Source: Candidatus Anderseniibacteriota bacterium (GTDB taxonomy: Bacteria; Patescibacteriota; Andersenbacteria; UBA10190). From it: 64,000 nucleotides of DNA. The stretch lies in the NCBI GenBank assembly GCA_040900375.1, contig JBBDZC010000018.1:567-64566 (forward strand). Direction: 5' to 3'. This document shows, piece after piece, positions 46,208 through 59,241 of the stretch. Positions within the stretch are counted from its first letter, which is position 1, and each line of letters opens with the position of its first letter. The notes under the pieces were generated by a model. That model was given only the letters and a program-made list of their open reading frames with translations. It made no database searches and had not been told where the DNA came from. Made by a program: the position numbers and the translations under genes.

Positions 46208-46657
46208 TTAGTCGGTGAAACACTCACCGGGCCCTAAGCGCAAGCGCCGTTCTTCCTGAAAGGCGTTACCGTCAGGAAATCGGCCGGTGACCTGTACGCA
46301 AGGGGTAATACCATCACTCGGCAGATACTTTGCTTCTCCTTCGTAGCCCGCAGTGCTTGTATCTGGGACAGACCCATACTCGACTGCTCCTGTAAGCGGG
46401 GTAGATTCTTGGGCAAATAATGATAACTCATACAAGCCTTGTTCTAACCCCGAATTAGCGGCATAGAAAGCGCGCTCGGAAGAGATCGCGTCCGTGGTAG
46501 CGCGAATTTGGCGAGCTAAGATAATGCTAAAAAGGATGGCAGAGGAAACAATAATCGCGAGCATAATGAGCGACATGTAAATCGCAATATCGCCGCGCTG
46601 CTGGTGACCCGCGGGTTGCTTAAGTCTCCGAGTGGTTAGGGAGGATAGCATAGTCAT
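46208..46657 (-). CDS. PilX-like minor pilin / pilus-associated protein
   Basis: 149 aa. N-terminus RGDIAIYMSLIMLAIIVSSAILFSIILA resembles a PilX N-terminal domain. Last gene of the pilus operon. Confidence 0.45.
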   Translation of the reverse strand: MTMLSSLTTRRLKQPAGHQQRGDIAIYMSLIMLAIIVSSAILFSIILARQIRATTDAISSERAFYAANSGLEQGLYELSLFAQESTPLTGAVEYGSVPDTSTAGYEGEAKYLPSDGITPCVQVTGRFPDGNAFQEERRLRLGPGECFTD

Positions 46658-47256
46658 TACGGCGGGCTTAAAAAGGGAATAACTTGCCGCGAAGTAACCG
46701 AGCTCTGGAGGGTGACCGTGTGGTCTGATTTTTTTCGGGAAGTAGCTGCCACACTGATGGTCACAAAGCCTTGGTTGAGAAGCTTGTTGTCGGGGTCTAC
46801 ATTTGCCGCTCGCGCGATAAAGGTGAGCGTATCAATCTGCGTGTCGCGACTCACTAAAGAGTCATACGAGCTGTAGACTATCAGGCTACAGTCTTCTTCA
46901 GGCGGCACGTTTTCCGCCGCCCGTGCGAGCGTGCGTGCGGCACTATCATGGCGATAACTGACGCAGGTACCATTTTGGTTACGGAAAAACAGGAATGAAC
47001 TTGTTCCCGTAAAGGTATTGCCGTAACCGGTACGTACTTCCCGGTTGAGCAACTCTAAAGCAAATCGTAGGTCTGCCTGAATTTTTTGTTCACCAATGTG
47101 ACGGCGCTCGGTAAACACAAATTGGGAGAAAATACCCATAATTATCAACAGCAAGAGCGAAAAGATGCCAATCGCGACAATAATCTCAATAAGTGTATAA
47201 CCACGGCTATGCGCCAGGGGCAAACGAGAGGTAGCGAAGGTATCCATACAGCACAT
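46657..47256 (-). CDS. Prepilin-type minor pilin (PilW-like)
   Basis: Class III signal RGYTLIEIIVAIGIFSLLLLII (G|YTLIE with Glu at +5). The ORF-track start at 47304 overlaps the upstream gene; the internal Met at about 47256 or 47247 is more likely. Confidence 0.6.
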   Translation of the reverse strand: MCCMDTFATSRLPLAHSRGYTLIEIIVAIGIFSLLLLIIMGIFSQFVFTERRHIGEQKIQADLRFALELLNREVRTGYGNTFTGTSSFLFFRNQNGTCVSYRHDSAARTLARAAENVPPEEDCSLIVYSSYDSLVSRDTQIDTLTFIARAANVDPDNKLLNQGFVTISVAATSRKKSDHTVTLQSSVTSRQVIPFLSPP

Positions 47257-47257
47257 A

Positions 47258-47812
47258 TCAAGGCTTATACCAGTTATATAACACTTCTTTGACTTCGGCT
47301 TCACGCGTCAGGCCCCGGCTTTGCCACGTGACTTTCGCACTGATTGTAATCAAGGGGGGCGTACTATTCTGCGCGGTACAATCAACACTGATTAATCGGC
47401 TATAGGGCGTCAGGGTGGCCGCACTCGGATGGTGGGTCCACAGATTGGTATCGGTTATCCGCAACCGCTGCTGGGCTAAGCTCGGGTTAGCGGTGATAAA
47501 CAACGTGGTCACGGGATCATGGTCAATCGTAAATTGGTAGTCGCTACTCGAAGCCTCGTCACAAATATCCTTCGTCCACGCTTCCCCCGAAAACCAATTC
47601 GTATCACGGTAGGCTTGGACTAACTCCAGCCCCTCGCGCGCCAGATTAGCGGCAATAAATCTTTCTTGGGCAATGCCGACAATGTTCTGGGTGCGCGATA
47701 CCAGTTGCACTATCGCGAGGGATCCGCCCACGAGTAAAAAGGTAGCAATTAACACGCCGAGGAGAGACATGCCGCGTTGTAACTTAATTAATTGGCCAGA
47801 CCACGTCAGCAT
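47258..47812 (-). CDS. Minor pilin-like protein (PilV-like, atypical prepilin motif)
   Basis: QRGMSLLGVLIATFLLVGGSLAIVQLV is a hydrophobic N-terminal helix after an RG motif but lacks Glu at +5. 184 aa. Confidence 0.45.
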   Translation of the reverse strand: MLTWSGQLIKLQRGMSLLGVLIATFLLVGGSLAIVQLVSRTQNIVGIAQERFIAANLAREGLELVQAYRDTNWFSGEAWTKDICDEASSSDYQFTIDHDPVTTLFITANPSLAQQRLRITDTNLWTHHPSAATLTPYSRLISVDCTAQNSTPPLITISAKVTWQSRGLTREAEVKEVLYNWYKP

Positions 47813-47813
47813 A

Positions 47814-48338
47814 TTATTCTCGTTCTAATTGACCGTAGGGATACACTGCTAAACGGACGATTGTAGTGCCTAGTTTGAGTTCGAAGCGACCCGGGTTTTT
47901 AACGGCACCATCAACCAATAATTCAATTGTTGGCGGCTGCCCCAAAAATAAGAAGCTTTTGTCTCCCGTCGCGACTACCCCCGCCGGTAACTCTTCCTGT
48001 TGAATAACATAATCAATCCCGGGAGAATACTGCTGGTCGGCAGCATCATCACCAGTATCAGCAAATAACAAAAGCGTCTGACCATCAATAAAGACGCCGA
48101 CGTCGGAGCAGCGGGCGGGTTCCCCTGGATTATCCAGAAGACAGTCTGGATCACGCTCTTCTTGAAGGGCTCGTTTTTGGGCATCACGAAGGGTAAATTC
48201 AATTTTTTGTTGCGCTAATAACAAGGCTTGACTATCGCGGGTTGAAGGAAAAGCCACAGTTAGAATGGTAATCATAATACCAATGATCACGACGGTGACT
48301 ACTACTTCAAGTAAAGTAAATCCTGAACTTGCCGGCAT
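47814..48338 (-). CDS. Prepilin-type pseudopilin (GspH/FimT-like)
   Basis: SGFTLLEVVVTVVIIGIMITIL is a canonical G|FTLLE prepilin cleavage/methylation motif. 174 aa. Confidence 0.7.
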   Translation of the reverse strand: MPASSGFTLLEVVVTVVIIGIMITILTVAFPSTRDSQALLLAQQKIEFTLRDAQKRALQEERDPDCLLDNPGEPARCSDVGVFIDGQTLLLFADTGDDAADQQYSPGIDYVIQQEELPAGVVATGDKSFLFLGQPPTIELLVDGAVKNPGRFELKLGTTIVRLAVYPYGQLERE

Positions 48339-48434
48339 CTCTTTAAGTGTACCTTAGTGTTGTCACAATTTACACGCCCACCCCTTCAGCTGCTATCCTT
48401 GAGTAAGGTGTGCGGAAGCGAACTTTGGTATTCC

Positions 48435-49238
48435 TTAGACACCCCACAGGAGCAAAAAAAATCGTGTGGGCAACTGGGGGACAAGTAACACGAGGATAGC
48501 GGCGCCAGCCAAGAATGGCCCAAACGGTATGGCTGTCTTCATTGTACTGTGGCCGCGGGTAAGCAGCGCGATACCCACAAGACCACCGATTGTAAAAGCC
48601 AGAAAAAGAACCATCACGGTGGCCGTGACACCAAACAAAGCGCCGAGGGGAATAAGTAATTTGATGTCCCCCAGGCCTATTCCCTGACCGCGAGTAATGA
48701 GCCAGAGAGAGAAAAGAAAACCCGCGCCAATGACTATCCCGCCGACGATGTCCCACGGCAGGAGCGTTGGTTGGAGTAATATTAGCGTCACACAGAAAAC
48801 ACTTAAGACAATAAGATACTGATCAGGCAAAAGAAATGTCGCACGATCAACAAATGCCAACACCAGTAAACAGGCAACAATGCCGAGAGTGACGAGACTG
48901 GCGACCATGCTGGTAATGGTGCTGGGAAAAGAACTGAAGATGACAACCGCGGCCACCCCCATAGCAAATTCGACGAGCGGATACTGCAAGGATATAGCAG
49001 CACCACAACGCTGGCAGCGGCCTCTAAGTAAGATAAATGAGAGGAGCGGCACCAGCTCCCACCAACGGAGTGTCTGCTGGCACTCTGGACAATATGACCG
49101 CGCGGGCTCGACCGCGCGGGTTGATGAAGCCGCTTTGTGTTTAATGTATCGCAAGATCACGACATTGAGAAAACTGCCAAGCAGCGTCCCGAGAATAAAA
49201 ATAAGCGGGGTGACTACCGTAATTTCCGGCCAGGCCAT
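48435..49238 (-). CDS. pilD: Prepilin peptidase (A24 family)
   Basis: GSFLNVVILRY, the Zn-binding CPECQQTL...WELVPLLSFILLRGRCQRCGAAIS..YPLVE, and a second catalytic Asp region (GLGDIKLL). 267 aa. Confidence 0.9.
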   Translation of the reverse strand: MAWPEITVVTPLIFILGTLLGSFLNVVILRYIKHKAASSTRAVEPARSYCPECQQTLRWWELVPLLSFILLRGRCQRCGAAISLQYPLVEFAMGVAAVVIFSSFPSTITSMVASLVTLGIVACLLVLAFVDRATFLLPDQYLIVLSVFCVTLILLQPTLLPWDIVGGIVIGAGFLFSLWLITRGQGIGLGDIKLLIPLGALFGVTATVMVLFLAFTIGGLVGIALLTRGHSTMKTAIPFGPFLAGAAILVLLVPQLPTRFFLLLWGV

Positions 49239-49245
49239 ACACTAC

Positions 49246-49728
49246 TTAGCTACTGGGGCAGCGCAAGGGGGGACCACTTAGTGTCTGACTCGCACAAACA
49301 GTAGCGACAACCTTAAAGACTCCGGTGGCATCAATACAGTAATGTTTATCCTCTTCGCTCTTGAGCGGCGCGCTGATGCAGTACTCCTTGCGTTGTGATT
49401 CACGAATAGTCACCGCATAGGAAGTCGGGTAGGTTATGGGGTAATTATCGGCGGTCGGCTCTCCCAGCTGCTTATCAATATCGGCGATAATTGTTGCGAC
49501 TTCGGTTTGAATCGAGGCATGCGCGCGCCAATTCAGATAACTTGCTCCCTGACTATCGTATACTTGCTCTGCTAACCAGCGGAGCTGCACCACGTCACTA
49601 CGAATGGCATTATCATGAGCCTTTTCTCGCCCATAGATCACCCCAATCAAAATGAGGATGGAGAGGATCCCAATAATGGCAATAACGATCAAAAGCTCAA
49701 TCAACGTAAAGCCTTTCGTCTCTGGCAT
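49246..49728 (-). CDS. Type IV pilin (paralog 2)
   Basis: [29 protein letters not shown] prepilin leader plus the N-terminal alpha-helix. 160 aa with Cys residues near the C-terminus. Confidence 0.8.
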   Translation of the reverse strand: MPETKGFTLIELLIVIAIIGILSILILIGVIYGREKAHDNAIRSDVVQLRWLAEQVYDSQGASYLNWRAHASIQTEVATIIADIDKQLGEPTADNYPITYPTSYAVTIRESQRKEYCISAPLKSEEDKHYCIDATGVFKVVATVCASQTLSGPPLRCPSS

Positions 49729-49757
49729 TTTTATATCGTATCACAAAGTACTGCAGC

Positions 49758-49787
49758 AAAACACTCGCCGATTGCTGGCGAGTGTTT
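49758..49787 (-). terminator. Strong hairpin terminator/attenuator between the two pilin genes
   Basis: Perfect 11-bp stem aaacactcgcc / ggcgagtgttt with a 7-nt loop. On the minus strand it is followed by TTTTGCTGCAG. Confidence 0.55.
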
Positions 49788-49812
49788 CGTTAACAGCTGT
49801 TAGTATGACAGG

Positions 49813-50262
49813 CTAACAACCAGCACCGGCAGATGTGCAAACTAACGCTGTATTGCTCTGATCAAACGCACCAGTTTCATCAACACAGATAAACGACGTT
49901 GTAAGACTGGCGAGATTTGATTCGATACAGAAGTTAGAAGAATCAGCCTGCACTCCCATTGCACCACCAGCACTGGTAGTATCAGTTTTCAACTGGGGGA
50001 CTGAAGTTTCGATCCCTCCTTTACAGTTCGTAGCATTCGGCGTGCCAAAACACGTGGCAAAGCCAGCATAACTAGCGCTATTAGCATCATAGTAAACTTC
50101 GGCGAGTGTGCGCATCTGACCAACGTTTGACTTGATGCGTGCATCATTAGCCTTTTCCCGCGCGTTGCCTAGCGCCACCAAAACTAACGCGGCCAAGATA
50201 CCAATAATGGCAATGACTACCAGCAATTCGATGAGGGTAAACCCACGCTCATGTTTGTTCAT
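49813..50262 (-). CDS. pilA: Type IV major pilin candidate
   Basis: [41 protein letters not shown] strong RBS (GAGAGGAGGTGAGGG, 9-nt spacer) precedes it and a terminator hairpin follows. 149 aa. Confidence 0.85.
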
Positions 50263-50265
50263 ACA

Positions 50266-50398: not shown

Positions 50399-51889
50399 TC
50401 ACGAAGGGTGACAGCGCCAAATAACAACTAACGAATCGCGGTCGTAGGGGTTAAAGGGAAAAATCTTGCCCAGGCGGCAATACGTTGCGTAAAAGTTAGC
50501 GTCAAGTAGGCTCGACTGATGCAATTGAAGTTGCTGGGGATTATGGGGATTGAGTCCGCCGAACGTAATGATGGTTTTGACGTGGCCGGCGATAAGTTCG
50601 CTCGTTCTGGTAGGAATATCAAATATTCCAAATTGGAAAAATTTATAGGCGGTCTCCACATAATTTTTGAAAATAGGTCGGCCGGTTTCGAGAGCGATCA
50701 GGGGGGTAACGTAAAACTCGCCGTAGATGGGCTCGGCTTGCTCGGTAACCTGCGCCACATACGCGGTGATGTCCTCTAAATGAGCAATGACGCCCTGCTC
50801 GGCAAAATGGAGGTAATACCACGAAAAAGTAATCATGAGCATTCCTAGAAGGACCGCCGTGACTCCCCTAAATATACGAGGGGTAAGGCGAGCCCGAAGT
50901 AGCTCAAGGGTGGCGCCCCAGCTAAAAGCTAGCCAGGGGGCCGCCATCTTGAGATACAAGAAATAAATATCTTTATACAACAATAAAAAGGTGGTGATGC
51001 TACCAAGTATTAACATACTGATCAGGAGGAGAGATTTGGCGCGAGCTCCGACCGAGGGAGTAGACTGGCGATACCACCAGAACTGCAACAGCCCGAGTAA
51101 TGGTAAGCCGGCAGCAAGCACTATATCGTGCCGAAGAAACATCTGGAAAATGTATTTTTTGGAAAAAACTGCAACCTCGCCAATGTGGCTTAAGAACACA
51201 TTATGCAGGTATAGGTCACCCTGCCACCACCAGAAAAAAATCGTGACCACTCCAAAAATCAGTGTAAAGCCCGCCACGAGACGCCGCGCGAGGGCAGCCT
51301 GCTTGGTGAGGAACAAAAATGCCAGCAAAGGGATAAAGAGCACTACAGCATATACTTTAGTCAGGGCGGCGAGACCGAATAATACGCCACCCAACAGTGG
51401 CCAGCGTTTAAGACTACTGAAAGTCGCGAGCAGACTTAAACTCACCACCAAATGAATATCAGAGACAAAGTCAGTGGTGTGGAGTACTACAAATGAAAAA
51501 AGATACAGCACCGTGGTAAGGAGAGCCACAAGGCGGGAAAAAGCGCCCGCCGCAAGACGATAGATGACCCAGACATCAATAATGGTGAGCCCCACCGGCA
51601 CCAGGTTGAATGATTGCCAACTAAAACCTATAAGACTCCCAATCAGGGCAAAAAAATACGGAATAAACGGCGGTGAAGAGTAAAAGAAATCTCGGTAGGG
51701 AAAACTCCCCTGGGTTATCAAGTAGGCAATGTATATATAAAAATTCCCATCAGAAAAGCGGGGCGCCGAGTTTATAATTTTCGTCACTATGAAAAACACT
51801 ACCGCACCGACAACCACAACGGTGGCACTATGTATGCGAACCGAGGAGAAGCTCGACCACAGGTGTGAGGGGTGACGATCGGCGCGCAT
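50399..51889 (-). CDS. GT-C fold membrane glycosyltransferase (PMT/ArnT-like) embedded in the pilus operon
   Basis: 496 aa with about 12 transmembrane helices. Loop motif DGNFYIYIAYLITQGSFPYRDFFYSSPPF parallels the PMT/ArnT D..Y...A....G......PPL signature. Lies between the pilin genes and pilC. Confidence 0.55.
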   Translation of the reverse strand: MRADRHPSHLWSSFSSVRIHSATVVVVGAVVFFIVTKIINSAPRFSDGNFYIYIAYLITQGSFPYRDFFYSSPPFIPYFFALIGSLIGFSWQSFNLVPVGLTIIDVWVIYRLAAGAFSRLVALLTTVLYLFSFVVLHTTDFVSDIHLVVSLSLLATFSSLKRWPLLGGVLFGLAALTKVYAVVLFIPLLAFLFLTKQAALARRLVAGFTLIFGVVTIFFWWWQGDLYLHNVFLSHIGEVAVFSKKYIFQMFLRHDIVLAAGLPLLGLLQFWWYRQSTPSVGARAKSLLLISMLILGSITTFLLLYKDIYFLYLKMAAPWLAFSWGATLELLRARLTPRIFRGVTAVLLGMLMITFSWYYLHFAEQGVIAHLEDITAYVAQVTEQAEPIYGEFYVTPLIALETGRPIFKNYVETAYKFFQFGIFDIPTRTSELIAGHVKTIITFGGLNPHNPQQLQLHQSSLLDANFYATYCRLGKIFPFNPYDRDSLVVIWRCHPS

Positions 51890-51922: not shown

Positions 51923-53128
51923 TTAGAGGACTAAGACCAAGTTATAAATCGGTAAGAGCACCGCGGCGACCACAATGCCGACGCCAATGCCTAAGATAAT
52001 CACTAGCAGCGGCTCCAAAAAGACAGTCACTGATTCGAGCATTTCTTCAACATCGCGGCGGAAAAAATAGTTTGCTTCTTTAAAAGCTTTTTCAATTTCA
52101 CCGCTACGCTCACCAATACTAACCATGGTAGTGAGCATCGGTGGTATATAGGGCTCATGTTCCCAGACGGAAGAAATACTGGCACCATCTTTAATGGCCA
52201 CGACCGTATCATCAAGAATGTTTTGATAGACCCGATTACCGAGTGATTCCCGGGCTAATTTAAGCGATTCTAGGATAGGCACGTCGCTGCTAAACAGGGT
52301 GTGGAGAATCGACGTCAGCCGGGCCAAATACACTTTAGTAAAAAGTTTGCTCAAGAGCGGGAGCCGCAAGACCCAGGTGCTGATATTATATTGACCCTCG
52401 GGTGTTTTAAGATACGAGCGCAGGAGAAAACCTAAAGCCACCGCGATGAGACCAAAAATATACCAGTAGCCCTGAATGGCATTAGTAATAATAATCAATA
52501 TCCGCGTCGGCAATGGCAGTTGCACTTGGGCTTCTTCAAATAAAGTAACTAGTTGGGGAACGACAAAAATAAACATGAGTAGCACGACAAAGGCGACAGC
52601 GGTGAGGACAAAGGCGGGATACATCAGGGCCGAACGGACTTTGCGCACAAAGAAGTAGTTCTGCTCTAAGTAGTCAGCCATAATTCCCAGCGCGTCGGAG
52701 AGACGACCACTGGCTTCGCCGGTGCGCACTACCCCAATAAAGAAGAGAGAAAAGGCTTCGGGATGTTTGGTCATGGCAATCGAGAGCGCCTCCCCACCTT
52801 CAATATCATATGACATCTCTTGGAGCAGACGATGTAAAGCTGGTTTTTCTACTTGTTTGGTTAAGGCTTGTAAGGCTTGAAGAACCGGCACACCAGCTCG
52901 GATCATGGAGGAGATTTGGCGGCTAAAGAGAATAAGGTCACGGGTGTTAACTTTACCGCCGAGAACGGTCCGATGCAGCAGTGACGTATCATTAAAAATT
53001 TGTAAATCAATCGGCACCAGGCCGTGACTCTGCAGTAACACGGTGGCCCGTTCTTCGGTTTGGGCGCGGAGCTTGCCTTTAACTTCTTTGCCGTCCGCCG
53101 TGCGTGCGCGATAGGAATACTGGGGCAT
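51923..53128 (-). CDS. pilC: Type IV pilus assembly platform protein (GspF/PilC family)
   Basis: 401 aa with two T2SS-F repeats and three transmembrane segments. The N-terminus MPQYSYRARTADGKEVKGKL is typical of PilC. Confidence 0.9.
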   Translation of the reverse strand: MPQYSYRARTADGKEVKGKLRAQTEERATVLLQSHGLVPIDLQIFNDTSLLHRTVLGGKVNTRDLILFSRQISSMIRAGVPVLQALQALTKQVEKPALHRLLQEMSYDIEGGEALSIAMTKHPEAFSLFFIGVVRTGEASGRLSDALGIMADYLEQNYFFVRKVRSALMYPAFVLTAVAFVVLLMFIFVVPQLVTLFEEAQVQLPLPTRILIIITNAIQGYWYIFGLIAVALGFLLRSYLKTPEGQYNISTWVLRLPLLSKLFTKVYLARLTSILHTLFSSDVPILESLKLARESLGNRVYQNILDDTVVAIKDGASISSVWEHEPYIPPMLTTMVSIGERSGEIEKAFKEANYFFRRDVEEMLESVTVFLEPLLVIILGIGVGIVVAAVLLPIYNLVLVL

Positions 53129-53221: not shown

Positions 53222-54274
53222 TTAGTGTGTTAAAGTTTTGGCAGTGGAGAAATAAGGGCGAGCATCTTGGAGACGGACCGCGCCGGCATCAACTAGGGCT
53301 TGCAAACTGGCATCGAGAGTCTGCATGCCCACATCAGAGCTCGTTTGAATAATACCCAGAATCTGGTGGACATTACCTTCACGAATAACATTCCGGATCG
53401 CCGTTGTGGCAATCATAATTTCCACCGCGGGAATTCGGCCGCCCTCTAGCCAGGGTAACAAGCGCAAAGAAACAACGCCGGATAAAGTCGTCGAAAGCTG
53501 CGAGCGAATTTGGTGCTGCTGGACCGGCGGAAAAGAATCAATTAAACGCTCAATCGTTTGCCCCGCATCATTCGTGTGCAGGGTAGCAAAGACTAAGTGT
53601 CCTGTTTCCGCGACTGTGATCGCCGTTTGCATCGATTCTAAATCGCGGAGCTCGCCAATCATAATCACGTTAGGATCCTGGCGCAGCGTGGCGCGAATGG
53701 CCGTGGCAAAAGAAGCAGCATCGTGCCCGACTTCGCGTTGGTCAATGATGGATTGCTTGTCCACAAACTGATACTCAATGGGATCCTCTACGGTAATAAT
53801 GTGCTCGCGCCGGCTTTCGTTGATGTAATCGATGAGCGAGGCCATAGTGGTTGATTTACCGTGACCGGCCGGACCGACCACTAACACGAAACCCTGCTTA
53901 AGCTCGGCAAATTGAGTTATCTGGGGCGGCAAGTGCAGTTCCTCCACCGTACGGATGTCTTTGGGAATGAGCCGCAGGGCAGCTGTAATTTCGCCTAAGT
54001 GATAAAAGACATTCACGCGAAAACGGGTACCATCCTGTAAACCATAGGAAAAATCACTCTGTTTTTCTTCGGCAAGTTCTTTAAGCCGCCGCTCTTTGTC
54101 ATTCTTCAGCAGCTCATCTATCATCTGCTGGGCTTCGGCGGAAGCGAGAATCTCGGTGCCGATTGGTTGTAATTGGCCGTCAATTCGAAAAAAAGGAGTT
54201 CGTCCCGCGCTAATGTGGACATCGGACACACCAGCATCTTTTGACTCACGCAACAGGTCATCAATAATACGCAT
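53222..54274 (-). CDS. pilT: Pilus retraction ATPase
   Basis: Walker A GPAGHGKST, HIITVEDPIEY, and the PilT-type AIRATLRQDPNVIMIGELRD...HLVFATLHT. 350 aa. Confidence 0.9.
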   Translation of the reverse strand: MRIIDDLLRESKDAGVSDVHISAGRTPFFRIDGQLQPIGTEILASAEAQQMIDELLKNDKERRLKELAEEKQSDFSYGLQDGTRFRVNVFYHLGEITAALRLIPKDIRTVEELHLPPQITQFAELKQGFVLVVGPAGHGKSTTMASLIDYINESRREHIITVEDPIEYQFVDKQSIIDQREVGHDAASFATAIRATLRQDPNVIMIGELRDLESMQTAITVAETGHLVFATLHTNDAGQTIERLIDSFPPVQQHQIRSQLSTTLSGVVSLRLLPWLEGGRIPAVEIMIATTAIRNVIREGNVHQILGIIQTSSDVGMQTLDASLQALVDAGAVRLQDARPYFSTAKTLTH

Positions 54275-54310: not shown

Positions 54311-54706
54311 CTACGCGGTTGCTTTTTTGTTTTCCAAAAGCCTGGTGATCTTTTCCACGACTTCTGTAGGCGTGTAGTGAGCTTTGATGATGTAATCATT
54401 GGCACCAAGTTTTATACCACGCTCCACATCGGGTTTTTGTCCTAAATTAGTCAAGAGAATAATAGGTAACTCCTGCGTGCGCTTATCGCGCCGCAGCGCC
54501 TCCAGAATTTCAAAACCATCCATTTTTGGTAAGACAATATCAAGCAGCAGTAGGTTAGGTAGAGGATCTTTTTGGAGTCGTTGCCACGCTGTTTCTCCAT
54601 CCTCGGCAATTTCCACCTGAAAACCCAGGCTCGCTAATTTAGTGTGGTACATGCCTGAAATAAAGGAATCATCTTCGACTAGTAAGATAGATTTTGCGTC
54701 ATTCAT
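54311..54706 (-). CDS. Single-domain response regulator (CheY-like receiver)
   Basis: ILLVEDDSFISGMY...LLLLDIVLPKMDGFEILEALR...IILLTNLG...GANDYIIKAHYTP, with phospho-acceptor Asp in LLDIVLP. 131 aa. Confidence 0.85.
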   Translation of the reverse strand: MNDAKSILLVEDDSFISGMYHTKLASLGFQVEIAEDGETAWQRLQKDPLPNLLLLDIVLPKMDGFEILEALRRDKRTQELPIILLTNLGQKPDVERGIKLGANDYIIKAHYTPTEVVEKITRLLENKKATA

Positions 54707-54718
54707 ACAATTATAGAT

Positions 54719-56467
54719 TTAAGTGCCTAGCTGCTCTTCACTAGTTACGCGCATCACATCTTCGTATTGAACCTCGCCCACGAGAGCCTTGAGGAGCCCA
54801 TCTTCACGCATCGTCAGGTTACCTTCCTTCTGTGATACATCTCGTAGTGTATCATATTCTCCCGAGTCATTAATAGCGTTGCGAAAAGCCCGACTAACCG
54901 GAACGGTCTCAAAGATGGCAACACGACCGACTGAGCCGGCCTCGTGACAGGCGGGACAACCAGGACTTTCATAGAGCACTTCGGGCCGCCGTTGATTATT
55001 GTCATTTTTATACTCCGCCGGTACGGCGGCGAGCGCCTGGGTGATCTTTTCCCGCAAACCAGCAGGCATCTTCACTGCCCGCTTGCACTCTTGGCATAGT
55101 TTCGCGACTAGCCGTTGGGCCACGAGCAGCCGAAGCGTAGCCGTGAGCAGAAATGGGTCAATGCCCATATCAACCAAGCGCGGCACTGTCCCGACAGCAT
55201 CATTGGTATGAATTGTGGATAAAACTAAGTGCCCGGTTAACGAGGCATGGACTGACAGCGCCGCGGTATCGCGGTCACGTATTTCCCCTACCATTAAGAT
55301 GTCAGGGTCTTGCCGCAGCAAATTCCGTAAACCAGAAACAAAAGTTAGTCCGATATCGGGTGCAATCTGGGTTTGGTTGATGCCGGGAATATCGTATTCC
55401 ACTGGATCTTCGAGAGTCACAATATTTACATCCTGTGAATTCAGTTGCGTCAACGCCGTAAAGAGCGTGGTTGATTTGCCTGAACCAGTGGGCCCAGAGA
55501 TGAGAATAATACCGTGGGGAGCACGCAAATGCTCTTGCAAAATTTTCTCTTGGGTACCGCGCAAGCCAAGTTGATTAAAGGATGGTGCGCCCTGCGACTT
55601 ATCAAGGATACGGAGTGCTGCTTTTTCACCGTAGGTTGTGGGCATTGTGGAAACACGAAAATCAAAGGAGCGGCCTTCAATGGCGATAGAAAAGCGGCCA
55701 TCCTGCGGCAGGCGCGATTCGTCAATTTTGAGGCTCGATAAGATTTTAATGCGGGAAATGATGGCAGCGTGAATTTTCCGCGGCAGGATTAAAGAGTTAT
55801 GAAGATCACCGTCAATACGGTAGCGAATTCTGACATCTTTTTCTGTTGGTTCGACATGGATATCAGAGGCATGACCTTCAATCGCGTGGCGAATAATCAC
55901 AGCGACGACTTTCGTGATTGGCGCTTCTTCGATAAAACGAGTAATATCTTGGGTTTCTTTGCCGCTGACATCAGTTTGAGCAAGTTCTCTCGTAAAATCT
56001 TTAAGCGCGCCGCCAATCTCGGCTTGGATTTCCGCGGCTCCGCCTAAGGCTTTATTAATCCCCTCTTGCGAGGCTAAGTAAATTTCTGGGTGCAGGCCTT
56101 TCTTTTTGGCAATAAACTTCACCGCTTCTAAAGCCTGGAAATCATCGGGGGATTCCATGGCGATAAGTAATTTAGTCTCCTTCTCGTCAAAAGCAAAAAA
56201 ACGGTAGGTGGCGGCGGCCTGGCGAGAAATAGTCGCCATGGCTTGTTCGTTAATTCTCGTGGATGTCAAATCAATGTATGGTATCCGCAACATTTCGGCG
56301 CGGACTTGGGCTAGCTGTTCGGGATACACCATTTTTTCTTTCAGGAGCACTTCTTCCATGGCCAAACTTTCTTTAGCCATAAGATTGTGAATACGCTCCA
56401 ACTGCGTAGGCTTAATTAAGCCCCGCTCAAGCAGTTTTTGTTCTAGTTGCAATTGGTTATCTGCCAT
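54719..56467 (-). CDS. pilB: Pilus assembly (extension) ATPase, GspE/PilB family
   Basis: N-terminal T2SSE_N domain, Walker A GPTGSGKST, Asp box, tetra-Cys motif CQECK...CPACHEAG. 582 aa. Confidence 0.9.
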   Translation of the reverse strand: MADNQLQLEQKLLERGLIKPTQLERIHNLMAKESLAMEEVLLKEKMVYPEQLAQVRAEMLRIPYIDLTSTRINEQAMATISRQAAATYRFFAFDEKETKLLIAMESPDDFQALEAVKFIAKKKGLHPEIYLASQEGINKALGGAAEIQAEIGGALKDFTRELAQTDVSGKETQDITRFIEEAPITKVVAVIIRHAIEGHASDIHVEPTEKDVRIRYRIDGDLHNSLILPRKIHAAIISRIKILSSLKIDESRLPQDGRFSIAIEGRSFDFRVSTMPTTYGEKAALRILDKSQGAPSFNQLGLRGTQEKILQEHLRAPHGIILISGPTGSGKSTTLFTALTQLNSQDVNIVTLEDPVEYDIPGINQTQIAPDIGLTFVSGLRNLLRQDPDILMVGEIRDRDTAALSVHASLTGHLVLSTIHTNDAVGTVPRLVDMGIDPFLLTATLRLLVAQRLVAKLCQECKRAVKMPAGLREKITQALAAVPAEYKNDNNQRRPEVLYESPGCPACHEAGSVGRVAIFETVPVSRAFRNAINDSGEYDTLRDVSQKEGNLTMREDGLLKALVGEVQYEDVMRVTSEEQLGT

Positions 56468-56508
56468 GATTGAGCCTGTGCTTGGATTACTGGACCAGCC
56501 ACCAGCAC

Positions 56509-56790
56509 TTACAAGAAGGGGTTGGCTTTACCGGTAGCCGCAGGCGGTTGAACTGGCAGTGCACCGCTGATAATTAACTGTTTATCAAGAGAAAGATATG
56601 AGGCTGTCTGCAAAAACTGAAGATTAAAACCTGACGTGCTGTCTTCGCTTAGCTCACCAGGTAATGGGCTGGATGGGCCAGTTGGTTGGCTTTGTGAGGG
56701 TAATAAGGAAAGGACAAGGGCGCTGACTAGCGCGGCCGCAATTAAGACAGCCGATAAAATAATTATGACTCGTGTCTGTTTATTGGCCAT
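56509..56790 (-). CDS. Hypothetical pilus-operon membrane-anchored protein
   Basis: Likely start at the internal MANKQTRVIIILSAVLIAAALVSALVLSLL, giving one transmembrane segment then a Pro/Ser-rich segment. The ORF-track start at 56862 would overlap the pilO-like gene by 83 nt. Confidence 0.35.
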   Translation of the reverse strand: MANKQTRVIIILSAVLIAAALVSALVLSLLPSQSQPTGPSSPLPGELSEDSTSGFNLQFLQTASYLSLDKQLIISGALPVQPPAATGKANPFL

Positions 56791-57379
56791 GATTTTCTCC
56801 CCGATGCTTATAAAAGTTAATATCCATGCGCGCGCCGAGTTGATCGAGCGTCGTGGGATCACGTTGCAAGCGCAGGGAAACTACATCCATTAAACGCGCC
56901 GAGCGCTCAAGCTGTTCCAAAAAGAGCCGCAGCTGTTGGTAGGAACCGCGAGCCTCGATATTCACAGCGAGAGGCTCAATGGTAGCAGGCACATTCACTA
57001 ATTCTCCCCGAGCCCGTAAGGCTTGGACTTTACTTTTCTCACCCTCACTATTATTAGCAAGCCCGATAATGGTCACGCCAGTAGTTTCCGCAGTGCGATG
57101 GAAAATCCGTGTCGCATCATCGAGAGCATCATCAGTCGGCAAAACTACGGCTAATTGTTGTTCGTGCTGCTGCTGACGAGTGAGTACCTCTTTCTTTTGA
57201 TCAATCGTTAAGAGAAACTGTTGTTTTTCCACAATGGCTGCCTCCACGCCCGCCACGGCAGCTTGCTGTTCCCGCAAACTTTTCAACATTGGCTGAAAAA
57301 TTGCAAAAATGGCGATAATAGCCACGAGAATTATGCCGGTCAAGAGTAAGTAGGGTAAGTTCAGTGATTGTTTAGCCAT
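56780..57379 (-). CDS. pilO: PilO-like pilus assembly protein
   Basis: 199 aa: N-terminal transmembrane segment (LLLTGIILVAIIAIFAIF), a coiled-coil, then a periplasmic domain. Position after the pilN-like gene fits pilO. Confidence 0.55.
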   Translation of the reverse strand: MAKQSLNLPYLLLTGIILVAIIAIFAIFQPMLKSLREQQAAVAGVEAAIVEKQQFLLTIDQKKEVLTRQQQHEQQLAVVLPTDDALDDATRIFHRTAETTGVTIIGLANNSEGEKSKVQALRARGELVNVPATIEPLAVNIEARGSYQQLRLFLEQLERSARLMDVVSLRLQRDPTTLDQLGARMDINFYKHRGENHGQ

Positions 57380-57382
57380 AAC

Positions 57383-57997
57383 CTAGAGACTATTCGGGGG
57401 CAGATTCGGGCGACTACCTTGTAAGGCTTCCGGTGGAAAGTTGAGCGTAGCTTGAAAACTGTAGTTGATTGTCGTCACAGTTCCGTCAGGTGATGCAGTT
57501 TCATTACGGGCAATAGAAGCTAGATCAACAGCTGTAAACATTGTTTTTCGTGTAGGACTTGTGGTCAGACTAGCCAGAGTTTGCGCCACTTCATCAATAT
57601 TAGGGGTATTGCCGCTGACGATCAGTTGGCCTTCCCGAGTCGTCATTTCTAGATCAATCAATACCGTGGGCGCGGGTAAGAGTCGTTCAATTTCTTGCAA
57701 GAGAGGCAGCGGGCTCACGTGCGTGGCCAGCAGTTCCTCAAGAGCATCAATTCGTTCTTCAAACAACGTGATGCGAGTGACATCATCACCAGCTTCGATG
57801 ATTCTTCGCTCTAACCCCTGTAACTGGGCCTGGGATCGAGTTAAGGCTCTAGCAGCACTGGACTGGAGTCCCGCGAGGATACCCCACATGACTACCAGCA
57901 GCACGACAATGCCAATGGATAAACTAAACAATGCTCGCCGGCGCCGGCGAATGGACGCTAGGTAGGCTGTGCCTGGAGCTAAATTAATCGTTGCCAT
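57383..57997 (-). CDS. pilN: PilN-like pilus assembly protein
   Basis: 204 aa: short basic cytoplasmic N-terminus (INLAPG..RRRRRALF), a single transmembrane segment, and a periplasmic domain. Immediately downstream of pilM. Confidence 0.6.
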   Translation of the reverse strand: MATINLAPGTAYLASIRRRRRALFSLSIGIVVLLVVMWGILAGLQSSAARALTRSQAQLQGLERRIIEAGDDVTRITLFEERIDALEELLATHVSPLPLLQEIERLLPAPTVLIDLEMTTREGQLIVSGNTPNIDEVAQTLASLTTSPTRKTMFTAVDLASIARNETASPDGTVTTINYSFQATLNFPPEALQGSRPNLPPNSL

Positions 57998-58060
57998 ACC
58001 ATATTGTTACAGGGCATCATTAAACTCGACTAGAAGCCGAAGGAAAAAATAATAGACTCA

Positions 58061-59164
58061 TTATACTTTACTAAATCCGCGCTGCGCAAGGCCGACCGCC
58101 ACGGCGTACATGGGACCGAGTTCATGCAAACGGGCATCGAGAGTTTGCGGATATGCTAAACCTCGCCAAGGATTGCCAACCGTGACACTATGGCCAATAA
58201 ACTCGGACCACACGGCAGTTAGTCCGCGCAAGTTAGCGCCGCCGCCAATTAAAACTGTCTTCGTCAGCGCGCGGCCAGCTTTACGTTCATACAACTGCAG
58301 CAGATGTTGGGCTTGATCCAAGATTTTCTGCACCACTTGCATGGCAGCAATCGTTAATTCAGGAGGGGCTTGATTGATTAAGCCAAATTCCACCTTTTTC
58401 TGTTCCGCGGCCGCGGGGGAAAGAGCTAGAGCTTGAGCAATGTTGGCCGAGATGGCACGACCGCCATGCTCAATCGTGTGAGAGACGCGTGGCGTTCCGC
58501 CGTCAATAATGTGGAAGGTGGTAACACGATCGCCGATATCCACAATCATGGCGGAGTCATATTGATTGGTCAGCAAGGATCGTACTAAGGGAAATGTTTC
58601 GACCTCGAGCGCGAAGAGTTCAAGACGCAACAGTTCCATAAGTTTGGTGTAGCGTGTCACCAGGTCCTTCGGCGCCGCGGTAACAAAAACGGGCACGGTT
58701 TGCAGGTTCGACGACGGTGACACAGGCGTAGCGGGCGGGGCGGTAGTCGGTTTTTCATTTTCCATGTGCGGCGGTTGACCAACGCGACTCCACCCTAACA
58801 CCATCTCATCTAAATTAGCCGGGACGACATCACGCGCAGCAAAGTGCACGGCCTTATCCATATCAGGCTCGGGAATATCAGGCAGCGTCAAGACCGTCGA
58901 GAAGACCACGCTTGAAGGCAATGCCGCAATTACCTGGTCCGTTGACACGCTGGCACTATCAAGCATGCGCGATACCACTGCCGCCACGGCGCGGATCTCA
59001 TCTTCGTCATCACCAACAACGTCAGTTAATAAATTAGAGAGATTGGCCTGGGCATACGTGACCACTTCTAAGCGCCGGCGACGATCAATGAGTTCCACTA
59101 CCTTTAAAGAAGAGGTGCCAATATCCAAACCAATATAGGCCGACGAAGAACTGAATAATGCCAT
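58061..59164 (-). CDS. pilM: Actin-like ATPase PilM
   Basis: AYIGLDIGTSSLKVVEL (actin/FtsA-fold phosphate-1 motif) with a DxG and GGGA region. The ORF-track start at 59203 may be upstream of the real start (MALFSSSSAYIGLDIG at 59164). Confidence 0.85.
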   Translation of the reverse strand: MALFSSSSAYIGLDIGTSSLKVVELIDRRRRLEVVTYAQANLSNLLTDVVGDDEDEIRAVAAVVSRMLDSASVSTDQVIAALPSSVVFSTVLTLPDIPEPDMDKAVHFAARDVVPANLDEMVLGWSRVGQPPHMENEKPTTAPPATPVSPSSNLQTVPVFVTAAPKDLVTRYTKLMELLRLELFALEVETFPLVRSLLTNQYDSAMIVDIGDRVTTFHIIDGGTPRVSHTIEHGGRAISANIAQALALSPAAAEQKKVEFGLINQAPPELTIAAMQVVQKILDQAQHLLQLYERKAGRALTKTVLIGGGANLRGLTAVWSEFIGHSVTVGNPWRGLAYPQTLDARLHELGPMYAVAVGLAQRGFSKV

Positions 59165-59241
59165 AGGAAAACCTTGCCAATGAAAGTACTCCGAGTATAC
59201 CATGAAGCTATAAGTTAATTTGATATTATTGCCCTACGTAT

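What the first reader, a model, noticed from the sequence alone, without database searches (positions are those of the whole stretch)
46208..59203. Complete secretin-less type IV pilus locus (13 kb) on one strand
The gene order is pilM-pilN-pilO-(small membrane ORF)-pilB-CheY-like receiver-pilT-pilC-GT-C glycosyltransferase-pilin-pilin-pilD-four minor pilins. No PilQ secretin or PilP is present anywhere in the window. The absence of PilQ and PilP fits a single-membrane (monoderm) envelope. The presence of pilT implies a retractile, force-generating pilus, which could serve motility, DNA uptake or host attachment; a comF-like gene begins at the window end. The arrangement differs from the usual proteobacterial split into pilMNOPQ, pilBCD and pilT loci.
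Basis: partly seen in the sequence, partly recalled or inferred. Interest (0 to 1): 0.6.

Follow-up and report, generated by a model that had tools for sequence, protein, structure and literature searches.

The report
Secretin-less type IV pilus locus, CPR bacterium
This is a real and complete type IV pilus gene cluster without an outer-membrane pore, but it belongs to an ultra-small "candidate phyla radiation" bacterium, where such clusters are a known hallmark; the one unusual item is a membrane glycosyltransferase gene inserted beside the main pilin gene.

Summary
Window 46208-59203 carries 16 co-directional genes, all on the minus strand: pilM-pilN-pilO, a small bitopic ORF, pilB, a CheY-type receiver, pilT, pilC, a GT-C glycosyltransferase, two pilins, pilD and four minor-pilin-like genes. 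PilT is a true PilT: it passes the TIGR01420 cutoff, carries an AIRNVIRE motif, and matches solved PilT better than PilU or PilB. No secretin or PilP was detected among the ORFs scanned across the window (all those of 110 aa or more). The gene starting at 63932 is ComF-family.

The organism is a Candidatus Andersenbacteria MAG (Patescibacteria/CPR). The whole locus, its flanks and the receiver between pilB and pilT are syntenic in other CPR genomes. The literature already describes co-localised pilB/T/C/M/N/O/D without PilQ as a CPR hallmark. In cultured Saccharibacteria such pili have been tied to twitching and host attachment, and many T4P genes are essential there. So this is a new member of a known kind.

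Only the GT-C gene is unusual. It is absent from every related pilus locus. It has an ArnT-like fold (model pLDDT 92). Its family normally sits in housekeeping contexts, so pilin glycosylation is a positional hypothesis (about 25%). Interest is low to moderate.

The parts
58061..59164 (-). pilM, the actin-like cytoplasmic alignment protein (367 aa; the longest ORF extends to 59203).
   Evidence: PF11104 E 2e-33 and TIGR01175 134.5 bits against a cutoff of 133. The start follows the gene call on an identical contig.
57383..57997 (-). pilN, a bitopic alignment protein (204 aa).
   Evidence: PF05137 E 2.8e-4, 21.3 bits, just below the cutoff. The N-terminus reads MATINLAP and is followed by a TM helix. 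The position is conserved in CPR loci.
56780..57379 (-). pilO, a bitopic alignment protein (199 aa).
   Evidence: PF04350 E 3e-4, 21.4 bits against a cutoff of 22. It also gives a weak GspM hit, E 2e-5. It is syntenic in relatives.
56509..56790 (-). Small conserved bitopic protein (93 aa). It has an N-terminal TM helix and a conserved C-terminal ...LPVxPPxxTGKxNPF motif. Its role is unknown.
   Evidence: It lies at the same position, after pilO and before pilB, in Andersenbacteria and in more distant CPR loci that share a G(K/R)xNPF motif. It has no Pfam hit, and no PilP match in Pfam or in PDB sequences.
54719..56467 (-). pilB, the extension ATPase (582 aa).
   Evidence: T2SSE E 6e-125 plus an MshEN N-domain. 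The best NCBIfam model is type_IV_pilB (519 bits, below the equivalog cutoff). The best solved relatives are Myxococcus and Geobacter PilB. Walker A is GPTGSGKS, with CQEC at residue 458 and CPAC at residue 504.
54311..54706 (-). Stand-alone CheY-type receiver (131 aa) between pilB and pilT.
   Evidence: Response_reg E 2e-23. A stand-alone receiver of 127-141 aa with the DD, D, T/S and K positions conserved occupies the same position in this window and 18 related CPR loci.
53222..54274 (-). pilT, the retraction ATPase (350 aa).
   Evidence: TIGR01420 426 bits against a cutoff of 319. It scores 296-330 bits to solved PilT, 239 to PilU and about 108 to PilB. AIRNVIRE lies at residue 292 and Walker A is GPAGHGKS.
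51923..53128 (-). pilC, the polytopic platform protein (401 aa).
   Evidence: T2SSF matched twice, E 1e-51. GspF and Thermus-PilC models match at full length but below their equivalog cutoffs.
50399..51889 (-). GT-C fold membrane glycosyltransferase (496 aa), inserted between pilC and the major pilin gene.
   Evidence: PMT_2 42.6 bits against a cutoff of 26.1. NCBI names it a GT39-family protein of an Andersenbacteria MAG. The AF2 model has pLDDT 92.4. Best folds are ArnT 5f15/5ezm (TM 0.63-0.64), then STT3, ALG9, Pmt4 and PglB. D47 and D67 in the first external loop are nearly invariant, and C471/C493 in the C-terminal domain are invariant. The gene is absent from all related pilus loci.
49813..50262 (-). 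Pilin A (149 aa), the probable major pilin.
   Evidence: N_methyl E 1e-10, with the prepilin site MNKHERG|FTLIELLV. It is the only gene in the locus with a strong GGAGGTG ribosome-binding site, and a hairpin follows it.
49761..49785 (-). Terminator-like hairpin directly after pilin A (ACACTCGCC - loop - GGCGAGTGT, then TTTG).
   Evidence: The sequence was read. A 68-nt stretch folds at -26.8 kcal/mol. The consensus terminator scan did not call it because the T-run is short.
49246..49728 (-). Pilin B (160 aa).
   Evidence: N_methyl E 2e-7, with the site MPETKG|FTLIELLI.
48435..49238 (-). pilD, the prepilin peptidase with an N-terminal domain (267 aa).
   Evidence: A24_N_bact E 1e-28 and Peptidase_A24 E 2e-13.
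47814..48338 (-). Minor pilin 1, GspH/FimU-like (174 aa).
   Evidence: N_methyl E 2e-6. It gives a weak GspH hit, E 3e-9, below cutoff. The site is MPASSG|FTLLEV.
47258..47812 (-). Minor pilin 2, weakly PilV-like and non-canonical, with Gly at position +5 (184 aa).
   Evidence: TIGR02523 PilV E 2e-7, below cutoff. It has no Pfam hit. The sequence is shown.
46657..47247 (-). Minor pilin 3, GspJ/PilW-like (196 aa).
   Evidence: N_methyl E 3e-6, with weak GspJ and ComGF hits. The site is HSRG|YTLIEI. The start follows the gene call.
46208..46657 (-). Fourth small membrane-anchored protein of the minor-pilin block (149 aa). Calling it PilX/GspK-like rests on position only.
   Evidence: It has no family hit. 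It is conserved at this position in relatives at 38-53% identity.
63932..64000 (+). Start of a ComF-family gene. This is context and not part of the operon.
   Evidence: The complete 232-aa product on identical contig L001 matches TIGR00201 ComF (E 4.5e-24) and GntX (E 1.3e-24), both below cutoff. It also matches DZR_2 (E 5.5e-5).

Best explanation
This is the standard type IVa-like pilus machine of a Patescibacteria (CPR) bacterium, here a Candidatus Andersenbacteria MAG. It is encoded as one co-directional block.

Shown by sequence:
- A PilM-PilN-PilO alignment complex with a CPR-specific small bitopic partner.
- A PilC platform.
- A PilB extension ATPase and a PilT retraction ATPase.
- A PilD prepilin peptidase.
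- Two pilins and a block of four minor-pilin-like proteins.
- No secretin or PilP in the window.

Inferred from established knowledge of type IVa pili:
- PilD cleaves the prepilins at G|F.
- The minor-pilin-like block is expected to prime assembly.
- PilB, acting through PilC, polymerises pilin A into a fibre that crosses a single-membrane envelope without a secretin.
- PilT depolymerises the fibre, giving a retractile, force-generating pilus.

Inferred from cultured Saccharibacteria:
- The likely roles are attachment to a host cell and twitching.
- A contribution to DNA uptake, together with ComEC, ComF and DprA, is possible.

Inferred from position and conservation only:
- The stand-alone receiver between pilB and pilT, once phosphorylated, biases the machine between extension and retraction.
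- The inserted GT-C enzyme uses a polyprenyl-phosphate sugar on the outer face of the membrane. It may glycosylate the pilins it is co-encoded with.
For: - Family assignments for 13 of the 16 genes.
- PilT identity and PilB identity.
- Canonical prepilin sites.
- Tight gene spacing on a single strand.
- No secretin or PilP among the ORFs scanned in the 64 kb window.
- Taxonomy: the closest PilB loci, at 60-68% identity, are mostly labelled Andersenbacteria (a few are labelled Saccharibacteria or simply 'bacterium'), and NCBI's own name for the GT-C protein agrees.
- Synteny: the block ClpB-HtpX-LemA | pilMNO-small-pilB-receiver-pilT-pilC-pilin(s)-pilD-minor pilins | LigA is syntenic in six long Andersenbacteria-type loci. 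The core is also syntenic in loci labelled Ryanbacteria or Kaiserbacteria and in other MAG loci with the same gene order.
- Literature: CPR genomes co-localise PilB, T, C, M, N, O and D and lack PilQ (PMC6744442). T4P is a hallmark of the phylum (PMC13293708). TM7x T4P locus 1 has the same parts and drives twitching (PMC11623550). Most T4P genes are essential in Southlakia, and ComEC mediates transformation there (PMC10633639).
- GT-C donor type: ArnT-like fold. A GT2+GtrA/DPMS_TM (Dpm1-like) gene family lies within a few genes of the GT-C gene in 13 of 30 homologue loci, all in the distant group, and is usually immediately adjacent.
Against: - No experiment or expression data exist for this organism.
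- The PilN and PilO hits fall just under the Pfam cutoffs.
- Two of the four 'minor pilins' lack a recognisable prepilin motif.
- The PilB and PilC models do not separate T4aP from T2SS. GspE scores 507 against PilB at 519 bits, and GspF is the best PilC hit, all below equivalog cutoffs.
- The rest of the genome could not be searched for a secretin, ComEC, DprA or a histidine kinase.
- The GT-C family is not generally linked to pilus genes. Only 2 of 41 homologue loci have pilus genes within 10 kb, and one adjacent pilin is about what chance would give.
Confidence: 0.88

Rival explanations
1. The machine is mainly a competence (DNA-uptake) pilus. It would capture extracellular DNA and retract to deliver it to ComEC/ComF, feeding a cell that is expected to lack nucleotide synthesis.
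For: - A ComF-family gene lies 4.7 kb from pilM and RecX lies 1.6 kb away.
- LigA directly follows the minor pilins, even in distant CPR loci.
- The window also carries a nucleotide-salvage cluster: ThyX, two thymidylate kinases, dCTP deaminase/dUTPase genes and a nucleoside deoxyribosyltransferase.
- The literature proposes DNA scavenging by CPR pili (PMC6744442).
Against: - It is not a ComG-type system. ComGA scores 248 bits against a cutoff of 300, ComGB is weak, and PilM, PilN, PilO and PilT are all present.
- In Southlakia, ComEC, ComF and DprA are dispensable for growth while T4P genes are essential, so the essential role of the pilus there is not competence (PMC10633639).
- In TM7x, T4P-1, the locus of this type, is tied to twitching (PMC11623550).
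- The nearby ComF, RecX and LigA genes could reflect conserved housekeeping synteny.
Confidence: 0.3
2. The locus is a type II secretion-like pseudopilus that exports proteins, rather than a surface pilus.
For: - PilB scores almost as well on GspE (507 bits) as on PilB (519 bits).
- PilC's best model is GspF.
- PilO hits GspM.
- Minor pilins hit GspH and GspJ.
- Saccharibacteria have been described as having T2SS-like genes (PMC10633639).
Against: - A bona fide PilT retraction ATPase sits inside the operon. T2SS do not normally include one (established knowledge).
- PilM/N/O are present rather than GspL/M/C, and there is no GspD.
- All the Gsp hits are below their equivalog cutoffs.
- Pili are seen on cultured CPR cells (PMC13293708).
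Confidence: 0.05
3. The GT-C gene is a general envelope glycosyltransferase acting on lipid, wall polymer or other surface proteins. It merely landed in the pilus operon and has nothing to do with pilins.
For: - The family has 173 representatives at E<=1e-30.
- In the closest homologues it sits in a fixed NDK - GT-C - PCMT context. In the distant archaeal-type homologues it sits beside Dpm1-like GT2, aRF1 and a tRNA synthetase.
- Only 2 of 41 homologue loci have pilus genes nearby.
- The nearest solved fold, ArnT, modifies a lipid.
- All related pilus loci work without it.
Against: - Here it is 33 nt downstream of pilC, co-directional, and immediately upstream of the probable major pilin. Its composition matches its neighbours.
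- P. aeruginosa TfpW sets a precedent: a GT-C enzyme modelled on ArnT and encoded next to pilA glycosylates pilin (10.1101/2020.04.19.049825).
- One distant homologue (L100) is flanked by a pilin and a sugar nucleotidyltransferase.
Confidence: 0.65

Closest known systems
CPR/Patescibacteria type IV pilus loci (Meheust et al. 2019, PMC6744442; Nanosynbacter lyticus TM7x T4P locus 1, PMC11623550; Southlakia epibionticum T4P1, PMC10633639)
   Same: - The same parts list in one cluster: PilB, PilT, PilC, PilM, PilN, PilO, PilD, a major pilin and several minor pilins.
- No PilQ.
- Direct synteny with Andersenbacteria-, Ryanbacteria- and Kaiserbacteria-labelled loci, at 60-68% PilB and 70-75% PilT identity to the closest.
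   Different: - A GT-C glycosyltransferase lies between pilC and the pilin gene. None of the 80 related loci fetched has one.
- The stand-alone receiver between pilB and pilT and the small G(K/R)xNPF protein after pilO are conserved in these CPR loci, but they are not mentioned in the papers read here.
Type IVa pili of diderm bacteria (Pseudomonas, Myxococcus, Neisseria)
   Same: - Homologous PilB, PilT, PilC, PilM, PilN, PilO, PilD and pilins with G|FxxxE.
- PilT carries the AIRNxIRE motif.
- The minor-pilin block has GspH-, PilV- and GspJ-like members.
   Different: - No PilQ secretin and no PilP.
- Everything is in one operon instead of split pilMNOPQ, pilBCD and pilT loci.
- No PilY1-like adhesin was detected in the locus.
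Type IV pili of monoderm Firmicutes (Clostridium, Streptococcus sanguinis)
   Same: Secretin-less, with PilB, PilC, PilD, PilM, PilN, PilO and PilT and several pilins in one or a few clusters.
   Different: - The gene order differs.
- The CPR-specific receiver and small protein are present here.
- Sequence identity is only about 37-39% for PilB against the Clostridia and Bacillales loci fetched.
P. aeruginosa group IV pilin glycosylation by TfpW (10.1101/2020.04.19.049825)
   Same: - A polytopic GT-C enzyme with an Asp-containing motif in the first external loop.
- Modelled on or closest to ArnT.
- Encoded directly beside the major pilin gene.
   Different: - TfpW is 646 aa with a C-terminal TPR domain and lies downstream of pilA.
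- The protein here is 496 aa with a small alpha/beta C-terminal domain containing two invariant Cys, and it lies upstream of the pilin.
- No homology to TfpW was tested, and no sugar-biosynthesis genes lie in the window.

Membership tests
Type IVa-like pilus system | PilB-type extension ATPase (T2SSE core, N-terminal MshEN/GSPII domain, tetracysteine motif) | tested here: met
   T2SSE E 6e-125 and MshEN E 8e-13. The best model is type_IV_pilB and the best PDB matches are PilB. CQEC and CPAC are present.
Type IVa-like pilus system | PilT retraction ATPase distinct from PilB, PilU and TadA | tested here: met
   TIGR01420 426 bits against a cutoff of 319. It scores 296-330 bits to solved PilT, 239 to PilU, about 108 to PilB and 38 to the TadA model. 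An AIRNVIRE motif is present.
Type IVa-like pilus system | PilC platform with two T2SSF domains | tested here: met
   PF00482 matched in two stretches, E 1e-51.
Type IVa-like pilus system | PilM-PilN-PilO alignment subcomplex | tested here: met
   PilM passes TIGR01175 (134.5 against 133). PilN and PilO fall 0.6-1.5 bits under the Pfam cutoffs, but they have the right size, topology and order, and PilN has an INLAP N-terminus.
Type IVa-like pilus system | Prepilin peptidase and pilins with a class III signal (G|F/Y xxxE) | tested here: met
   PilD matches A24_N_bact plus Peptidase_A24. Four proteins pass N_methyl and have a G|F/YTLxE site.
Type IVa-like pilus system | Set of four core minor pilins (H/I/J/K-like) | tested here: inconclusive
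   Two are canonical. One is weakly PilV-like and lacks Glu5. One has no detectable family.
Diderm T4aP | PilQ secretin and PilP lipoprotein | tested here: not met
   No Secretin or PilP hit among the ORFs scanned in the 64 kb window, nor on the extra DNA of L001. The small post-PilO protein does not match PilP in Pfam or in PDB sequences. The rest of the genome was not searchable.
CPR-type pilus locus | Synteny and close homology with pilus loci of Patescibacteria genomes | tested here: met
   The order, including flanks, is identical in six long Andersenbacteria-type loci. The core order is also found in loci labelled Ryanbacteria or Kaiserbacteria and in other MAG loci with the same gene order.
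ComG competence pilus | ComGA/ComGB/ComGC-type components, no PilT and no PilMNO | tested here: not met
   ComGA 248 bits against a cutoff of 300, ComGB 126 against 240, ComGC 25 against 75. PilT and PilM/N/O are present.
Type II secretion system | GspD secretin, GspC/L/M, GspE/F at equivalog level, no retraction ATPase | tested here: not met
   GspE 507 bits against a cutoff of 630 and GspF 337 against 424. No GspD, GspC or GspL was detected, and PilT is present.
GT-C glycosyltransferases (PMT_2 / GT39-like, ArnT-like fold) | Polytopic GT-C fold with a conserved acidic residue in the first external loop | tested here: met
   PMT_2 scores above its cutoff. The model has pLDDT 92.4, and the top Foldseek hits are ArnT, STT3, ALG9, Pmt4 and PglB. 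D47 and D67 are nearly invariant across 36 homologues.
GT-C glycosyltransferases (PMT_2 / GT39-like, ArnT-like fold) | Polyprenyl-phosphate-sugar donor | tested here: inconclusive
   A Dpm1-like GT2+GtrA/DPMS_TM gene family lies within a few genes of the GT-C gene, usually immediately adjacent, in 13 of 30 homologue loci, all in the distant group. No such gene is in this window.
Pilin glycosyltransferase (TfpW-like function) | Transfers sugar to pilin Ser/Thr | not testable with these tools
   Only gene position supports it. The family is rarely pilus-linked.
CheY-type phosphorylatable receiver | Acidic pocket DD, phospho-acceptor Asp, conserved Thr/Ser and Lys | tested here: met
   The alignment of the window's receiver with 18 CPR orthologues keeps DD, D and K in at least 90% of the sequences and T or S in all of them. 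The cognate kinase was not found in the window.

The most novel reading that the evidence does not exclude
Two linked readings remain possible.

1. The GT-C enzyme, uniquely inserted between pilC and the major pilin gene, is a dedicated pilin O-glycosyltransferase. It would use a polyprenyl-phosphate sugar. As far as I know, that would make it the first genetically linked pilin-glycosylation system in a CPR bacterium, and it would bear on how these epibionts vary or mask their host-binding fibre.

2. The stand-alone receiver conserved between pilB and pilT across CPR classes, and the conserved small G(K/R)xNPF protein after pilO, are undescribed core parts of the CPR pilus machine. The receiver would act as an extension/retraction switch. 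The small protein would act as a secretin-independent partner of PilN and PilO.
Probability: 0.25. Interest if true: 0.55.

Novelty: new member of a known kind. Interest (0 to 1): 0.3.

Why it matters
Type IV pili are the main known surface organelle of CPR bacteria. In cultured Saccharibacteria, most pilus genes are essential and pili have been tied to host attachment and twitching. This locus adds one more well-preserved example and confirms the secretin-less, single-operon design in Andersenbacteria. That alone is not news.

Three observations could be useful to the field:
- The receiver domain sits between the two motor ATPases in this window and 18 related CPR loci. This points to a conserved, phosphorylation-dependent control of pilus dynamics in organisms with few signalling genes.
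- A small conserved bitopic protein follows PilO across CPR classes.
- One lineage has placed a GT-C glycosyltransferase beside its major pilin. This gives a concrete candidate for the pilin glycosylation that Saccharibacteria studies have only predicted.

Tried and rejected
1. Small post-PilO protein as a truncated PilP that keeps only the PilN/O-binding segment. This was rejected as unsupported. None of 9 orthologues gave a PilP hit in Pfam even at E<=10. A 13-sequence profile matched only TM helices in PDB sequences, which include the Myxococcus machine entry 3jc8, whose PilN chain was among those matches.

2. GT-C family as a general pilus-linked family. This was rejected. Of 41 homologue loci, only L099 (a minor pilin and PilD 3.6 kb or more away) and L100 (an adjacent convergent pilin) have pilus genes nearby. 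The usual neighbours are housekeeping genes.

3. GT-C as a recent foreign insertion. There is no compositional signal. Its GC is 0.486 and GC3 0.549, within the range of its neighbours.

4. Operon boundaries from promoter and terminator consensus scans. They were uninformative. 15 promoter-like and 17 terminator-like sites were found, against 15.2 and 15.7 expected from shuffles.

5. First AlphaFold run with a 3-sequence alignment. It was unusable (pLDDT 48) and was replaced by a 36-sequence run.

6. The search for related loci with the 36-sequence alignment. It failed because no stretch was conserved enough, and it was repeated with 9 sequences.

7. c-di-GMP binding by the PilB MshEN domain. 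The motif model scored 20 bits against a cutoff of 38, so no claim is made.

8. PilX/GspK identity of the last gene (46208-46657). It has no family hit at E<=0.1, so the label rests on position only.

Full report
**1. What is in the sequence**

The interval 46208-59203 holds 16 ORFs, all on the minus strand and transcribed from 59203 downwards. Pfam and NCBIfam scans give the following.

| Gene | Key evidence |
|---|---|
| PilM | PF11104 E 2e-33; TIGR01175 134.5 bits, cutoff 133 |
| PilN | PF05137 21.3 bits, cutoff 22.8 |
| PilO | PF04350 21.4 bits, cutoff 22 |
| Small ORF | no hit |
| PilB | T2SSE E 6e-125 plus MshEN |
| Stand-alone receiver | Response_reg E 2e-23 |
| PilT | TIGR01420 426 bits, cutoff 319 |
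| PilC | T2SSF twice, E 1e-51 |
| GT-C membrane glycosyltransferase | PMT_2 42.6 bits, cutoff 26.1 |
| Two pilins | N_methyl; sites MNKHERG\|FTLIE and MPETKG\|FTLIE |
| PilD | A24_N_bact plus Peptidase_A24 |
| Four small proteins | see below |

- Of the last four proteins, two are canonical prepilins (G|FTLLE and G|YTLIE).
- One is weakly PilV-like without Glu5 (TIGR02523 E 2e-7, below cutoff).
- One has no detectable family.
- Gaps between genes run from -11 to 136 nt.
- Gene calls on an identical metagenomic contig suggest slightly later starts for pilM (59164), the small ORF (56790) and minor pilin 3 (47247).

**2.

PilT is not a second extension ATPase.
- It passes the PilT/PilU family cutoff.
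- It scores 296-330 bits to solved PilT proteins of Aquifex, Geobacter and Pseudomonas. It scores 239 bits to a solved PilU and about 108 bits to PilB. The TadA model reaches only 38 bits.
- It carries AIRNVIRE at residue 292. From memory, AIRNLIRE is a PilT signature.

PilB matches solved Myxococcus and Geobacter PilB over its full length and has CQEC and CPAC motifs.

No secretin or PilP appears among the ORFs scanned across the window (all those of 110 aa or more). The remaining genes are:
- a 3132-aa NHL/fn3/SH3 surface protein, DnaE and ThrRS;
- MiaA, GatB, FolC, ThyX, SHMT and dCTP deaminase/dUTPase genes;
- two thymidylate kinases, ribosomal proteins L1 and L11, NusG and GyrB;
- PheST, iPGM, GatA, GatC and LigA;
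- LemA, HtpX, RecX and ClpB.

The gene that begins at 63932 is complete on contig L001. It matches the ComF family (TIGR00201 E 4.5e-24; GntX E 1.3e-24; both below the curated cutoffs).

**3. Whose genome it is**

- A scan of one genome per species with PilB returned loci at 60-68% identity that are mostly labelled Candidatus Andersenbacteria (a few are labelled Saccharibacteria or simply 'bacterium'). Next came other Parcubacteria-group MAGs at about 40%. Planctomycetota, Mollicutes-like and Firmicutes loci scored 35-39%.
- NCBI names the window's GT-C protein as coming from a Candidatus Andersenbacteria MAG on a 77-kb contig.
- That lineage belongs to the Patescibacteria group.
- ClpB (73-77%) and LigA (59-64%) identities to the same loci agree with this placement.

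**4. Comparison with relatives**

tblastn of all window proteins against the 80 fetched loci shows that six long Andersenbacteria-type loci share the complete order: ClpB - HtpX - LemA | pilM N O - small ORF - pilB - receiver - pilT - pilC - one to three pilins - pilD - minor pilins | LigA.

More distant loci with the same gene order, some labelled Ryanbacteria or Kaiserbacteria, keep pilM ... pilB - receiver - pilT - pilC - pilin - pilD, and several also keep LigA.

The receiver is a stand-alone protein of 127-141 aa in this window and 18 related CPR loci. The acidic DD pair, the phospho-acceptor Asp and the Lys are conserved in at least 90% of the sequences, and the Thr/Ser position is T or S in all of them. 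Most non-CPR loci fetched lack it at that position.

The small ORF after pilO is also conserved.
- In Andersenbacteria it has a TM helix and ends in ...LPVxPPxxTGKxNPF.
- In other CPR classes a 98-137-aa protein at the same place shares ...FxxLxDxxxPxxxEPxGRxNPFxP.
- I tested whether it is a truncated PilP. Neither Pfam nor a profile search of PDB sequences supports this.

**5. The one gene that does not belong**

The GT-C gene (50399-51889) has no counterpart in any related pilus locus. In the long Andersenbacteria-type loci, pilC is followed by the pilin within about 1190-1275 nt of the pilC start, which leaves no room for it.

What is known about the protein and its family:
- It starts 33 nt after pilC and ends 136 nt before pilin A. 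Its GC and GC3 match its neighbours.
- A full HMMER search finds 173 cluster representatives at E<=1e-30, mostly 450-490 aa.
- With 36 homologues, AlphaFold gives a confident model (pLDDT 92.4, pTM 0.92).
- The best solved matches are ArnT (TM 0.63-0.64), followed by STT3, ALG9, Pmt4, PglB and AftA. This is the GT-C fold.
- D47 and D67 in the first external loop are nearly invariant. C471 and C493 in the C-terminal domain are invariant, which fits an extracytoplasmic domain.

Homologue neighbourhoods:
- The closest group always shows NDK - GT-C - PCMT.
- A distant group lies on contigs with aRF1, so these are archaeal-type. In that group a GT2+GtrA/DPMS_TM (Dpm1-like) gene family lies within a few genes of the GT-C gene, usually immediately adjacent; it appears in 13 of the 30 homologue loci examined. 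This supports a polyprenyl-phosphate-sugar donor.
- Only two of 41 loci have pilus genes within 10 kb. L100 has a convergent pilin and a sugar nucleotidyltransferase next to it. That is about the chance expectation in pilin-rich CPR genomes.

The precedent for pilin modification by a neighbouring GT-C enzyme is P. aeruginosa TfpW (10.1101/2020.04.19.049825). However, TfpW is larger, has a TPR domain and lies downstream of pilA. I therefore rate pilin glycosylation here at roughly one in four. The more likely reading is a general envelope glycosyltransferase that is co-transcribed with the pilus genes.

**6. Likely mechanism**

Shown: the parts list.

Inferred from established type IVa pilus biology:
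- PilD processes the prepilins.
- The minor-pilin-like block is expected to prime assembly.
- PilB drives PilC-mediated polymerisation of pilin A.
- PilT depolymerises the fibre.
- PilM/N/O, plus the small protein, connect the motors to the outside.
- No secretin is needed because there is no outer membrane.

Pilin A is probably the major subunit. It alone has a strong GGAGGTG ribosome-binding site, and a stable hairpin follows it at 49761-49785 (-26.8 kcal/mol over a 68-nt stretch). This hairpin could attenuate read-through. The consensus promoter and terminator scans were no better than shuffles.

Function is inferred from cultured relatives.
- TM7x T4P locus 1, which has the same parts, is tied to twitching, and its second pilus is tied to host binding (PMC11623550).
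- T4P genes are essential in Southlakia, while ComEC, ComF and DprA are dispensable for growth but needed for transformation (PMC10633639).
- Host attachment and motility are therefore the leading roles. DNA uptake is a plausible additional role, given ComF, RecX and LigA nearby.

**7. Novelty**

Meheust et al. 2019 state that CPR genomes co-localise PilB, PilT, PilC, PilM, PilN, PilO and PilD, and that PilQ is not found. They note that this is consistent with a non-Gram-negative envelope (PMC6744442). A 2026 review calls T4P a hallmark of the phylum (PMC13293708).

The finding is thus a correct reading of an already described kind of locus. It is a new member, not a new kind.

The conserved receiver and the small protein were not mentioned in the papers I read. 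A full-text search for response regulator with pilB, pilT and Patescibacteria gave only two papers, neither of which appears from title and abstract to concern CPR pilus loci. That is weak evidence that they are undescribed.

Overall interest is low to moderate (0.3).

Noticed in passing
window 2702-12100 (+): A giant 3132-aa ORF has NHL repeats, fn3, Big_13, MG2-like and C-terminal SH3_3 domains. It lies directly upstream of dnaE (12158-15649). It looks like a large surface or adhesin-type protein.
   Followed up: partly
window 54311-54706 (-) and 18 related CPR loci (L002-L009, L011-L018, L021, L027): A stand-alone CheY-type receiver is conserved exactly between pilB and pilT across several CPR classes, with the phosphorylation residues conserved. 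No kinase is in the window. The CPR pilus papers read here do not mention it.
   Followed up: partly
window 56509-56790 (-); L013 9690-9986, L014 9567-9980, L016 3486-3836, L017 9498-9803, L018 2109-2465, L021 9476-9802: A small bitopic protein always follows pilO in CPR loci and ends in a conserved G(K/R)xNPF motif. It has no known family. The PilP-fragment idea was tested and found no support.
   Followed up: yes
window 44114-46105 (-) and L013, L015, L017, L021: NAD-dependent DNA ligase LigA directly follows the minor-pilin block on the same strand. This holds in Andersenbacteria and also in distant CPR loci at 42-46% identity. It may be conserved synteny or a link to DNA uptake; this was not resolved.
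   Followed up: no
window 24111-30175: A dense deoxynucleotide-salvage cluster. It contains an unusually long ThyX (571 aa), SHMT, two adjacent dCTP deaminase/dUTPase genes, a nucleoside 2-deoxyribosyltransferase-like gene and two tandem thymidylate-kinase paralogues (28786-29454 and 29447-30175).
   Followed up: no
L093-L120 (metagenome contigs): Distant homologues of the GT-C protein (25-32% identity) lie on contigs that encode aRF1, so these are archaeal-type. The order is conserved: Dpm1-like GT2+GtrA/DPMS_TM, GT-C, aRF1, then a ~780-aa protein read by eye as a class I aminoacyl-tRNA synthetase. The family is therefore shared between CPR bacteria and probably small-genome archaea.
   Followed up: partly
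window 15683-16822 (-), 39449-40663 (+), 18960-19577 (-), 37796-38227 (-): These ORFs have no confident family. 15683-16822 gives only a sub-threshold Baseplate_J hit (E 3e-4). 18960-19577 gives a weak CpoB-like lipoprotein hit.
   Followed up: no
window 54719-56467 (-), residues 1-60 of PilB: The N-terminus matches the MshEN domain, but the c-di-GMP-binding motif model scores only 20 bits against a cutoff of 38. Whether this CPR PilB senses c-di-GMP is open.
   Followed up: no
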